From a virus: DNA of 64,000 nt. The notes under the pieces are model-generated. The model ran no database searches, was not told the origin of the DNA, and worked only from the letters and a program-made list of their open reading frames with translations. The position numbers and the translations under genes are program-made. How positions within the stretch are numbered: the stretch's first letter is position 1; each line of letters starts with the position of its first letter. The DNA lies in the IMG/VR virus record IMGVR_UViG_3300047318_000369, positions 1-64,000 of that record; one strand, 5' to 3'. This document shows positions 35,621-36,345 of the stretch, one piece after another.

Positions 35621-36345
35621 GCCGACACACCGCGCCTCACACCTCCTCGACTATTCACGCCCAGGCGTTTCCACCCCACTCGGAACGACTTCCCGACGCC
35701 ACGCGACCGCACCTCATCCCAACTCTTGCCGACTTTTCTTTTCGCCACCGCGCCAGCCTCCACACCCCATGCCGACGGATCAACCCGGGCCGTTACTTCC
35801 CGCCCCTCGTCGACTACGCGCCCCTACGCAGGGCTTCCCGCTGCCGCCCCACCCAGCCGACTTTTCTGCCCCCTCCTGCCCCGCGCAGTTCAGCGCTACC
35901 CATGCCGACTATCCGTCGCTTCACCAACCAGCCCGCTCTGACTCGCGTCGACGTGCCAAGCCCACCCTCACCACGCCGTACCGACTGCCCGACACGAGGC
36001 CCGGCCACCCACCCCATCCCGTGCCGACTTCCCAATCCGGCTCGTCGCCGCACAGTCCGAGCCAAGCCCTCCGACACCCCCGCCCCGGCCTGGACCAGCC
36101 ACCCCGGCCCAGCTCCGACCGACTACCCGGTCCGGCTCGCCACCTCGCCACACATCACGACTCGCTCCAACCGACATGCCATCTCGATCCGCCTCGACCC
36201 GAGCCCGCCCGCAACGACTGCTCTTCCCGTCTCGCCTCGGCGCCCACCGTCCCATGACGACTTGCCAACCCTCCGCAGGCCAGGCCTAGCCGACTACCCA
36301 TTCCAACTCAGCCCACTCCGCCGCAGCCCACACGACCGCCCAGGT
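35621..36345. repeat. array of ~17 CGAC-anchored units built of 5-nt NCC-NN modules (GGN-NN on minus); putative guide-RNA array
   Basis: CGAC anchors at 35648, 35686, 35730, 35773, 35811, 35858, 35906, 35949, 35982, 36025, 36072, 36120, 36172, 36215, 36258, 36291, 36333; spacing mostly 3+5n. Confidence 0.85.

What the first reader, a model, noticed from the sequence alone, without database searches (positions are those of the whole stretch)
35648..36336. Array grammar: CGAC anchor plus n x 5-nt modules, with unit lengths quantised in steps of 5
Seen: successive CGAC spacings are 38, 44, 43, 38, 47, 48, 43, 33, 43, 47, 48, 52, 43, 43, 33, 42. Eleven of 16 are exactly 3+5n and the rest are off by one. 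Examples: 35949 CGAC-GT-GCC-AA-GCC-CA-CCC-TC-ACC-AC-GCC-GT-ACC-GA; 36172 CGAC-AT-GCC-AT-CTC-GA-TCC-GC-CTC-GA-CCC-GA-GCC-CG-CCC-GC-AAC-GA; 36258 CGAC-TT-GCC-AA-CCC-TC-CGC-AG-GCC-AG-GCC-TA-GCC-GA. A C recurs almost invariably every fifth base while the intervening dinucleotides differ between units, so this is not a simple satellite. On the minus strand the 35949 unit reads GGT-AC-GGC-GT-GGT-GA-GGG-TG-GGC-TT-GGC (GGY-NN), antisense to the RAMP gene. Inference: constant triplets are protein-binding scaffold, dinucleotides carry information, and CGAC/GTCG marks unit boundaries or processing sites. The functional strand is unresolved.
Basis: seen in the sequence. Interest (0 to 1): 0.9.

Follow-up and report, generated by a model that had tools for sequence, protein, structure and literature searches.

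The report
Phage VIPR guide-RNA array, divergent type
The five-base-periodic repeat array is real and is the guide-RNA array of a VIPR system, a CRISPR-related phage system first described in 2026 that reads DNA through a gapped code, so it is a new member of a known kind.

Summary
C recurs every fifth base (lag-5 autocorrelation 0.24; 0 of 1000 dinucleotide shuffles reach it) and there is no period 3. CGAC is twice as frequent as chance, and units measure 5n+3. The spanning ORF is not conserved.

The downstream 223-aa gene is homologous to Vipr, the lone RAMP protein of VIPR systems (hhalign 94.75%, E 5.6e-8, against the phage SUSP1 Vipr family). In 35 of 39 related loci with both flanks held, the same C-lattice tract lies beside that gene, always on its strand.

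The published gapped code fits. One window guide (35858-35905) matches 18 of 18 informative bases, skipping every codon's third base, in the catalytic motif of integrases of other Streptomyces elements. A relative's guide matches 22 of 22 in a phage helicase motif.

Differences from SUSP1:
- only one base per pentamer is invariant;
- the lattice on the vipr strand is C, not G;
- units abut at a GAC triplet, with no long tail.

The transcribed strand is unresolved; I favour the C strand.

The scan has reported VIPR loci before on other DNA: 22 earlier findings in at least 22 genomes hold the search words.

The parts
34964..35608 (+). Conserved upstream gene (P0002, 214 aa): candidate VIPR accessory (vap-like) gene.
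   Evidence: Coding-like GC3 of 0.88. A homologue stands directly upstream of the tract in 7 of the 11 loci searched. No Pfam or PHROGs family. No similarity to SUSP1 Vap1. The role is inferred from position only.
35605..36369 (+). 254-aa open frame (P0001) spanning the array: not a gene.
   Evidence: No lag-3 signal. The open frame differs between relatives, and L002 has stops in all three forward frames. Its translation finds only low-identity, mixed-frame matches in the closest relative. A G-poor sequence rarely forms stop codons.
35609..35647 (.). Conserved left junction of the tract.
   Evidence: Nearly identical in W, L009 and L002, whereas the array interior diverges. Function unknown.
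35648..36332 (.). vrRNA array: about 16 guide units of 6-9 pentamers. On the + strand each unit reads GAC, then n x (NN-xxC in the sense NNxxC). Unit length is 5n+3.
   Evidence: Lattice parse; statistics; conservation beside vipr homologues. The transcribed strand is not shown. The C lattice lies on the vipr strand.
35858..35905 (.). One guide unit (9 pentamers; dinucleotides TT TG CC TG CG AG AG TA AT) with a predicted natural target.
   Evidence: Exact 18 of 18 match under the 1-nt-skip rule in 2 IMG/VR contigs and in 3 of 401 Streptomycetaceae genomes, always at codons M-Y-L-L-R-H-G-H-K of a PHROG_1 integrase. Best match in the phage's own genome is 14 of 18.
36333..36365 (+). Conserved right junction carrying the ribosome-binding site of vipr.
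   Evidence: Near-identical in W, L002, L004, L009 and L010.
36366..37037 (+). vipr gene (P0003, 223 aa): a lone RAMP-family protein with a C-terminal G-loop.
   Evidence: hhalign of its family (A2) against the SUSP1-type Vipr family (A3): 94.75%, E 5.6e-8, 133 columns. SUSP1 Vipr identity confirmed by PDB 36pp. Weak G-loop matches to Csm4 and Cas6 models.

Best explanation
The stretch is the guide-RNA (vrRNA) array of a divergent VIPR (Viral Interference Programmable Repeat) system carried by a 90.5-kb temperate actinophage.

The module has three parts:
- a candidate accessory gene (34964-35608);
- the array (about 35648-36332);
- vipr (36366-37037).

Mechanism, by homology with the published SUSP1 system (inferred, not shown here): the array is transcribed and divided at the GAC triplets into about 16 guides of 6-9 pentamers. 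One Vipr protomer binds each pentamer and holds the fixed base or bases. The two variable bases of each pentamer are presented and pair with double-stranded DNA, skipping every third target base. The filament then silences the bound gene.

Shown here by computation: the dinucleotides of whole units match conserved codon positions 1-2 of genes in rival elements, namely an integrase catalytic motif and a helicase motif. The likely use is therefore interference with competing prophages or integrative elements of Streptomyces.

I favour the C-rich strand, co-transcribed with vipr, as the RNA (about 0.65-0.7).
For: Periodicity and grammar:
- Well above chance in the window.
- Reproduced in relatives.

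Linkage to the gene:
- 36 of 47 loci with at least 300 nt of upstream flank have a C-lattice tract within 900 nt upstream.
- 11 of 52 have one downstream.
- 35 of 39 with both flanks have at least one; 0 of 39 have one in the opposite orientation.
- This includes relatives at about 30% identity (L017, 32.4%; L015, 29.6%), where the tract lies downstream.

Protein homology to Vipr:
- (94.75%, E 5.6e-8).
- The SUSP1 gene used for comparison is labelled 'SUSP1 Vipr protein' in PDB 36pp.

Not coding.

Hypervariable content under a conserved grammar:
- L026 has a 99% identical Vipr, yet its units match window units only at background level: 0.62-0.79 for 16 units.
- The lattice C is conserved in 218 of 230 positions, against 0.67-0.80 at the other four positions.

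Gapped-code targets:
- The window guide matches 18 of 18 in integrases that are 47% identical to each other. Wobble bases differ between hits, and there are 3 exact hits against 0 one-mismatch hits in 401 genomes. The reversed-pattern control gave 1 hit.
- An L006 guide matches 22 of 22 in a ResIII/Helicase_C gene, starting at codon position 1.
- A related phage keeps the dinucleotides of the integrase guide in 16 of 16 positions while 4 of the 16 positions just before the invariant C changed.

Published definition of VIPR.
Against: - No RNA data. No RNA run holds the stretch, so transcription, strand and processing are unshown.
- The canonical GGY scaffold is absent. On the G-rich strand the pentamer is G (98%), then G 54%, then G 46% / C 27% / T 14% / A 14%.
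- Three SUSP1 residues reported to hold the two guanines (R138, D177, W178) align with T168, A205 and S206.
- There is no long structured 3' tail.
- In SUSP1 the G lattice is on the vipr strand. Here the C lattice is.
- Of four guides searched exactly in IMG/VR, one gave a chance-like hit (L094: 55% GC, not in wobble phase) and one gave none.
- A scan of 272 guides against the 370 kb of sequence held showed no excess over shuffled guides: 14 hits against 10-19.
- None of the other 17 runs called in the phage genome (15 of them in this array) hits L092 or L093 above null.
- My chance estimates for the exact hits are analytic (4^-k times an assumed collection size), not measured.
- The accessory gene has no detectable likeness to SUSP1 Vap1.
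Confidence: 0.9

Rival explanations
1. Same VIPR system, but the guides are transcribed from the minus strand as G-lattice RNAs, antisense to vap and vipr. Each would end in a short 3' element, GGGWWGTCG.
For: All characterised vrRNAs are G-based (GGY/NN), and the paper lists the alternatives NNNGG, YNNNG and NNNNG. On the minus strand the conserved element sits at the 3' end of each unit, like a tail. The most conserved base comes first in the pentamer, as G1 does in GGY.
Against: - The tract is wedged between two + strand genes, with no room for a promoter.
- The C lattice is on the vipr strand in every locus, and 0 of 39 loci have the opposite orientation. SUSP1 vrRNAs are co-directional with vipr.
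- Downstream arrays are followed at once by + strand terminator-like hairpins, some with T runs (L076, L050, L082, L017, L015).
- The residues that hold G1 and G2 in SUSP1 are replaced, while R179 of the pyrimidine pocket is kept as the invariant R207.
- On the minus strand the position equivalent to Y3 would be a purine in about 60% of repeats.
Confidence: 0.3
2. The tract encodes a proline-rich, disordered protein: the 254-aa ORF translationally coupled at both ends.
For: The frame 35605-36369 is open and overlaps both neighbours through ATGA.
Against: - Lag 3 is -0.03 while lag 5 is +0.25.
- In relatives the open frame changes, or all three frames carry stops.
- Indels are not multiples of three.
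- The translation is not conserved even against a relative whose flanking proteins are 91-98% identical.
- L085 carries TGA in every anchor.
Confidence: 0.02
3. An unstructured, C-rich, G-poor leader that acts only as a Rho-loading or regulatory spacer for the downstream gene, not as guides.
For: C 49% and G 19%. The RNA folds less well than shuffles (z = +1.81; 19 of 20 shuffles fold at least as well). YC dinucleotides recur regularly. The preference of Rho for such RNA is recalled, not tested.
Against: This does not explain several things: the strict 5-nt lattice, the GAC punctuation with 5n+3 units, the tracts downstream of the gene, the homology of the partner protein to Vipr, or the whole-unit gapped matches to rival genes.
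Confidence: 0.03
4. A DNA-level array of protein-binding sites, such as iterons, a centromere or an origin.
For: Short repeated anchors at regular spacing; a 5-bp quantum is about half a helical turn.
Against: - Strong, orientation-fixed strand asymmetry relative to the neighbouring gene.
- Hypervariable content between near-identical phages.
- The partner is a RAMP-family RNA-binding protein.
- No replication or partition gene is conserved beside it.
Confidence: 0.03

Closest known systems
VIPR type II system of Escherichia phage SUSP1 (Vipr + Vap1 + GGYNN vrRNAs; bioRxiv 10.64898/2026.04.26.720920 and 10.64898/2026.04.26.720927; PDB 36pp)
   Same: - A lone small RAMP protein homologous by profile comparison.
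- A two-gene locus in a phage.
- Flanking arrays of 5-nt repeats with variable dinucleotides.
- The 1-nt-skip match of guide dinucleotides to codon positions 1-2 of rival mobile-element genes, a recombinase among them.
   Different: - Here only one base per pentamer is invariant.
- The lattice on the vipr strand is C, whereas in SUSP1 it is G.
- Guides have 6-9 repeats, not 9-16.
- About 16 guides abut, with no ~40-nt pseudoknot tail.
- The G-contacting residues R138, D177 and W178 are replaced.
- The accessory gene is unrelated to Vap1 by BLASTP.
VIPR variants named in the same preprint: 'staggered' vrRNA arrays (legend of fig. S18) and NNNGG / YNNNG / NNNNG repeats (Methods, type classification)
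   Same: Contiguous guides where the end of one marks the start of the next, and a scaffold reduced to one or two fixed bases. (NNNNC)n here is (GNNNN)n on the other strand.
   Different: I could not see the figures, data S4 or the tables, so I cannot say whether this clade, its GAC punctuation or its strand is already catalogued. According to the text, the staggered arrays were not among those confirmed by small-RNA sequencing.
Class 1 CRISPR effector backbones (Cas7/Csm3 filaments on crRNA)
   Same: RAMP protomers polymerise along a guide and break pairing periodically. Weak G-loop matches to Csm4 and Cas6 models were found in up to 12 of 48 family members (Csm4 model PDLC01494, best E 9.9e-5; a second Csm4 model matched 6 members, best E 8.4e-6).
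   Different: - The period is 5, not 6.
- There are no 23-50-nt repeats, no cas genes and no acquired contiguous spacers.
- No contiguous protospacer-like match in the phage or a host genome.
- Pfam RAMPs did not ring on the phage genome.
TRAP-type binding sites (triplets separated by 2-3 nt; recalled, not tested)
   Same: A fixed-triplet plus variable-spacer, roughly 5-nt grammar on a single strand.
   Different: No TRAP-like protein is present. Here the variable bases, not the fixed ones, carry the specificity.

Membership tests
VIPR system | A Vipr protein: a minimal RAMP homologue with an RRM core, G-loop and thumb | tested here: met
   Profile-profile hhalign of the P0003 family (48 sequences) against the SUSP1-type Vipr family (37 sequences): probability 94.75%, E 5.6e-8, 133 aligned columns including helix 1 and the G-loop. 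With the single SUSP1 sequence only 9.2%, E 0.0035.
VIPR system | Tandem 5-nt repeats, fixed scaffold alternating with hypervariable NN, in the intergenic DNA flanking vipr | tested here: met
   Lag-5 signal and lattice. Tract adjacent to the gene in 35 of 39 loci. Content turns over between phages whose Vipr is 99% identical.
VIPR system | Canonical GGY scaffold (type II) | tested here: not met
   Pooled pentamer on the + strand: p3 is C .46 / G .27 / A .14 / T .14; p4 is C .54; p5 is C .98. The preprint allows 'a related consensus' (NNNGG, YNNNG, NNNNG), which this fits if read on the G strand.
VIPR system | A conserved structured 3' tail capping each vrRNA (type II) | tested here: not met
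   Units abut. The only conserved element per unit is about 9 nt, CGAC-WW-CCC. This resembles the 'staggered arrays' of the fig. S18 legend.
VIPR system | A vap accessory gene next to vipr | tested here: inconclusive
   A conserved 214-aa neighbour occurs in 7 of 11 loci. It has no known family and no BLASTP likeness to SUSP1 Vap1.
VIPR system | Carried by a phage or provirus | tested here: met
   The record is a 90,552-bp virus with direct terminal repeats. Homologues lie in IMG/VR contigs and Streptomyces genomes.
VIPR system | Noncontiguous 1-nt-skip recognition, with natural targets in rival mobile elements and the skip at the wobble base | tested here: met
   Computational only. Two of the 4 guides searched exactly gave wobble-phased whole-unit matches, to an integrase and to a helicase. 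One hit was chance-like and one guide gave none. No self-hit at 80% or more.
VIPR system | vrRNAs expressed, co-purifying with Vipr, and silencing targets | not testable with these tools
   No RNA run holds the stretch. No bench data.
CRISPR-Cas | Direct repeats of about 23-50 nt alternating with acquired contiguous spacers, plus cas genes | tested here: not met
   TRF finds no such array. No contiguous matches to the phage or a host genome above shuffles. No cas gene neighbours.

The most novel reading that the evidence does not exclude
This clade may run VIPR with a one-base cytosine scaffold, read from the C-rich strand.

The Vipr here has lost the residues that hold the two guanines (R138, D177, W178 align with T, A, S). 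It keeps the arginine of the ancestral pyrimidine pocket (R179 = the invariant R207). Each protomer would then lock a single C directly 5' of the guide dinucleotide.

The guides would be cut, at a GAC triplet that lacks its dinucleotide, out of the vap-vipr operon mRNA itself. The inter-cistronic spacer of a messenger would thus be an array of 16 to about 50 guides.

If so, the fixed triplet of the published code is dispensable, and the punctuation by a 'missing NN' is a new way to delimit guides.
Probability: 0.45. Interest if true: 0.6.

Novelty: new member of a known kind. Interest (0 to 1): 0.45.

Why it matters
VIPR systems were described only in 2026 preprints as a CRISPR-related, phage-borne way to recognise DNA through a gapped code.

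This locus adds several things:
- a large actinophage clade: more than 1,400 homologues at E <= 0.001 and 605 clusters at 50% identity;
- unusually long arrays, up to 1.8 kb in relatives;
- a scaffold reduced to one base;
- a simple GAC punctuation;
- concrete predicted targets, namely the integrase catalytic motif and a helicase motif of rival elements.

It also raises a testable question about which strand is the guide and how much of the fixed triplet the mechanism needs. It does not reveal a new kind of system.

Tried and rejected
Family and structure look-ups
- Pfam and PHROGs on the three ORFs: nothing.
- Rfam on 34400-37200: only a sub-threshold chance hit.
- PDB profile search with A1 and A2: nothing significant; Csm4 at E 0.9.
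- ESM Atlas: unnamed viral clusters only, and no model.
- Csm3 family search in 151 actinobacterial genomes, meant to build a comparison profile: 0 of 151.

Similarity searches
- blastn against phages: one short hit.
- tblastn against plasmids: none.

Transcription signals
- Promoter and terminator scan of 33200-38200: no sigma-70-like site; three minus-strand terminator-like sites against 2.1 expected.

Protospacers
- Contiguous protospacer search in the phage genome (top hits no better than 30 shuffles) and in host genome G001 (best E about 0.1): rejected.

Gapped-code scans
- Skip-rule comparison on the 370 kb held: small excess for skip 1 (28 against 15 at >=0.85) and for skip 3 (36 against 16, probably array-to-array homology). 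This was not confirmed at >=0.88 against 8 null replicates.
- No second window guide hits L092 or L093.

Sequencing runs
- No RNA holder listed.

Other period-5 candidates in the genome
- 39626 and 28851 are ordinary coding or C-rich DNA.

Distant relatives
- Distant Vipr-like queries in viral contigs and the first metagenome scan found little or nothing.

Hypotheses considered before the literature hit and dropped
- Rho sponge, TRAP-like ring, anti-Shine-Dalgarno mimic, Cas6 processing of a CRISPR-like array.

What I read
- 10.64898/2026.04.26.720920: abstract, whole Results, Methods sections 18, 20 and 27, and passages including supplementary figure legends.
- 10.64898/2026.04.26.720927: abstract and Results sections 5-6.
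- 10.64898/2026.10.15.759431: abstract, Introduction, Methods section 17 and passages.
- 10.64898/2026.10.21.760802: passages only.
Data S4, tables S2-S3 and figs S16-S18 of the first preprint may already list this clade, its type and its strand.
- That the exact grammar (GAC punctuation, C on the vipr strand) is not in print rests only on searches and the texts above.
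Full report
What is there

The window is the first 64 kb of a 90,552-bp virus record with direct terminal repeats. It is high in G+C, and its relatives sit in Streptomyces, Streptacidiphilus and related genomes.

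Between two + strand genes lies a 730-nt tract with C 49% and G 19%. The genes are 34964-35608 (P0002) and 36366-37037 (P0003).

- C autocorrelation is +0.25 at lag 5 and +0.14 at lag 10, nil at lag 3, and peaks again at 33/38/43/48.
- None of 1000 dinucleotide shuffles reaches the lag-5 value, the lag-10 value or the CGAC count, which is 23 against 11.5 +/- 2.5.
- Counted from each CGAC, every fifth base is C in 83-94% of 88 units.

The grammar is best written on the + strand as GAC followed by n pentamers NNxxC. The unit is then 5n+3 long, and the 'CGAC' is the last lattice C of one unit plus the GAC of the next. The window array parses into 16 runs of 6-9 pentamers.

The full list has 22 spacings, 12 of them 3 mod 5.

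Not a gene

A 254-aa frame spans the tract and overlaps both neighbours by ATGA. Several things show it is not coding:
- There is no period 3.
- Relatives open a different frame or none; L002 has 2, 4 and 6 stops in the three forward frames.
- Indels are of all lengths.
- The translation is not conserved.

The RNA of the + strand is less structured than its shuffles (z = +1.81).

Linkage to the neighbouring gene

P0003 has more than 1,400 homologues at E <= 0.001 and 605 representative clusters. It has no Pfam or PHROGs family.

I fetched 61 non-redundant loci with a full-length homologue. I dropped twins of the same contig and partial genes; they are listed in the script. The counts:
- A C-lattice tract (lag 5 >= 0.1, lag 3 < 0.1) lies within 900 nt upstream in 36 of 47 loci with enough flank.
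- One lies downstream in 11 of 52.
- At least one is present in 35 of 39 loci with both flanks. The four misses have shorter C-rich stretches.
- No locus of the 39 has the lattice in the opposite orientation.

The tract follows the gene even at about 30% identity: L017 (Microcystis phage Mae-JY09, 32.4%) and L015 (29.6%), where it lies downstream.

The anchor can vary. L085 uses CTGAC and clean NNNCC pentamers. Tracts reach 1,845 nt.

P0002 homologues precede the tract in 7 of 11 loci.

Evolution

Against L009 (Vipr 98% identical), the third codon positions of vipr are 87% identical. The tract is only 78% identical over 597 aligned columns, with 28 gaps.

L026 has a 99% identical Vipr, yet its units match the window's only at background level.

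In alignable blocks the lattice C is kept in 218 of 230 positions. The other four positions are kept at 0.67-0.80. The content therefore turns over quickly under a fixed grammar.

Identification

A literature search led to three 2026 preprints on VIPR systems. In those texts:
- VIPR is a minimal RAMP protein (Vipr), an accessory Vap and vrRNAs of 9-16 tandem YNNGG repeats, with a 3' tail.
- One Vipr protomer binds each repeat and sequesters GGY.
- The NN bases pair with double-stranded DNA while every third target base is skipped.
- Binding silences genes of rival phages and satellites.
- Seven types are described, with 'related' repeat consensus (NNNGG, YNNNG, NNNNG), staggered arrays and ribozyme-interspersed arrays.

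I fetched phage SUSP1. Its vipr translation is the chain named 'SUSP1 Vipr protein' in PDB 36pp.

A profile of 37 SUSP1-type Viprs aligns with the profile of the P0003 family at 94.75% probability, E 5.6e-8, over 133 columns. The G-loops align as GVGDWRPRFGRF against GVGASRSQGFGRY. Weak hits of family members to Csm4 and Cas6 models cover the same C-terminal stretch.

Testing the code

The gapped pattern is the same whichever strand is the guide, because both target strands are searched.

On the 370 kb of sequence I held there was no excess over shuffled guides. That set hardly contains rival elements.

Exact searches of IMG/VR with four whole-unit guides gave the following.

(a) Window unit 35858-35905 (18 informative bases):
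- Two contigs of 67-70% G+C match.
- The same pattern found 3 of 401 Streptomycetaceae genomes. All three are exact matches, none has exactly one mismatch, and the reversed-pattern control gave 1 hit.
- All five sites are the codons M-Y-L-L-R-H-G-H-K, in the region ...RMYLLRHGHK.WLD.DGH...RMGHEV.GV.G.Y of proteins matching PHROG_1 'integrase' at E 1e-25 to 1e-33.
- Pfam sees the family only below threshold.
- The guide bases fall on codon positions 1-2. The skipped bases differ between hits. The two viral proteins are 47% identical.
- By my analytic estimate, about 0.01 exact hits are expected in those genomes. This is inference.

(b) An L006 unit (22 informative bases):
- One contig matches, starting at codon position 1 of Y-V-Q-M-V-G-R-V-L-R-P.
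- The site lies at the end of the Helicase_C domain of a ResIII/DEAD helicase.
- The expected chance count is below about 0.02. This is inference.

(c) Window run 36076: one hit in a 55% G+C contig, out of phase and chance-like.

(d) A second L006 unit: none.

Both good matches span the unit exactly from anchor to anchor.

The phage's own genome scores at most 14 of 18, and its own integrase motif differs.

L027 carries the same integrase guide. Its dinucleotides are identical in 16 of 16 positions over the first eight pentamers, while 4 of the 16 positions just before the invariant C differ.

Which strand

In SUSP1 the GGYNN runs lie on the vipr strand. Here the vipr strand carries the C lattice.

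For the C strand:
- The orientation relative to vipr is fixed.
- The tract is wedged between co-directional genes.
- Terminator-like hairpins on the + strand follow downstream arrays directly.
- R138, D177 and W178, which hold the guanines in SUSP1, align with T168, A205 and S206. R179 of the purine-excluding pocket aligns with the invariant R207.
- On the C strand the invariant C sits directly 5' of NN, exactly where Y3 sits in the canonical repeat.

For the G strand:
- All characterised vrRNAs are G-based.
- The conserved 9-nt element would then be a 3' cap.
- The published alternative consensus motifs are written with G.

I put about 0.65-0.7 on the C strand. No RNA data exist for this stretch.

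Verdict

The finding is real, and its interpretation was essentially right. The kind of system is already described, and this scan has met it on other DNA: 22 earlier findings hold the search words. I reached VIPR through, before seeing those notes.

It is a new member of a known kind, with three variant features worth a bench test:
- a one-base scaffold;
- GAC punctuation without tails;
- the lattice strand.

It also has two concrete predicted targets.

Noticed in passing
L017 (PP395641.1, Microcystis phage Mae-JY09) 6001-7160: This isolate phage, filed under a Microcystis host, is about 70% G+C in the stretch read. It carries a vipr homologue (32% identity) followed by a 33-nt-unit C-lattice array and a hairpin at the right end of the linear record. 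All genes there are annotated as hypothetical.
   Followed up: partly
L085 1640-2470: A very clean array variant: NNNCC pentamers with the anchor CCTGAC (20 copies) instead of CGAC (3 copies). The punctuating step is 4 nt, and a TGA stands in every unit.
   Followed up: partly
L061 1-175; L082 5431-5725; L085 3636-3770: G-rich tracts with lag-5 signal (0.24-0.31) on the vipr strand, some distance from the gene. They could be arrays in the opposite orientation or belong to a neighbouring element.
   Followed up: no
window 54996-55062: A short C-rich intergenic stretch ending in CCGAC that my tract caller flagged with two short lattice runs. It could be a solo guide or just a C-rich spacer.
   Followed up: no
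window 27711-28853 and 32008-33234: Two tyrosine-recombinase-like genes lie in the same phage, upstream of the VIPR cassette. The second has the motif TLRDLRHSHD, which the integrase-matching guide does not match.
   Followed up: partly
L056 116-630 and 1091-1820; L008/L076; L053; L072; L082: Some relatives carry two lattice tracts, either separated by a small gene or lying on both sides of vipr. This recalls the upstream-plus-downstream vrRNAs of SUSP1.
   Followed up: no
window 35609-35647 and 36333-36365: Both junctions of the array are far better conserved among relatives than its interior. The right one extends beyond what a ribosome-binding site needs.
   Followed up: no
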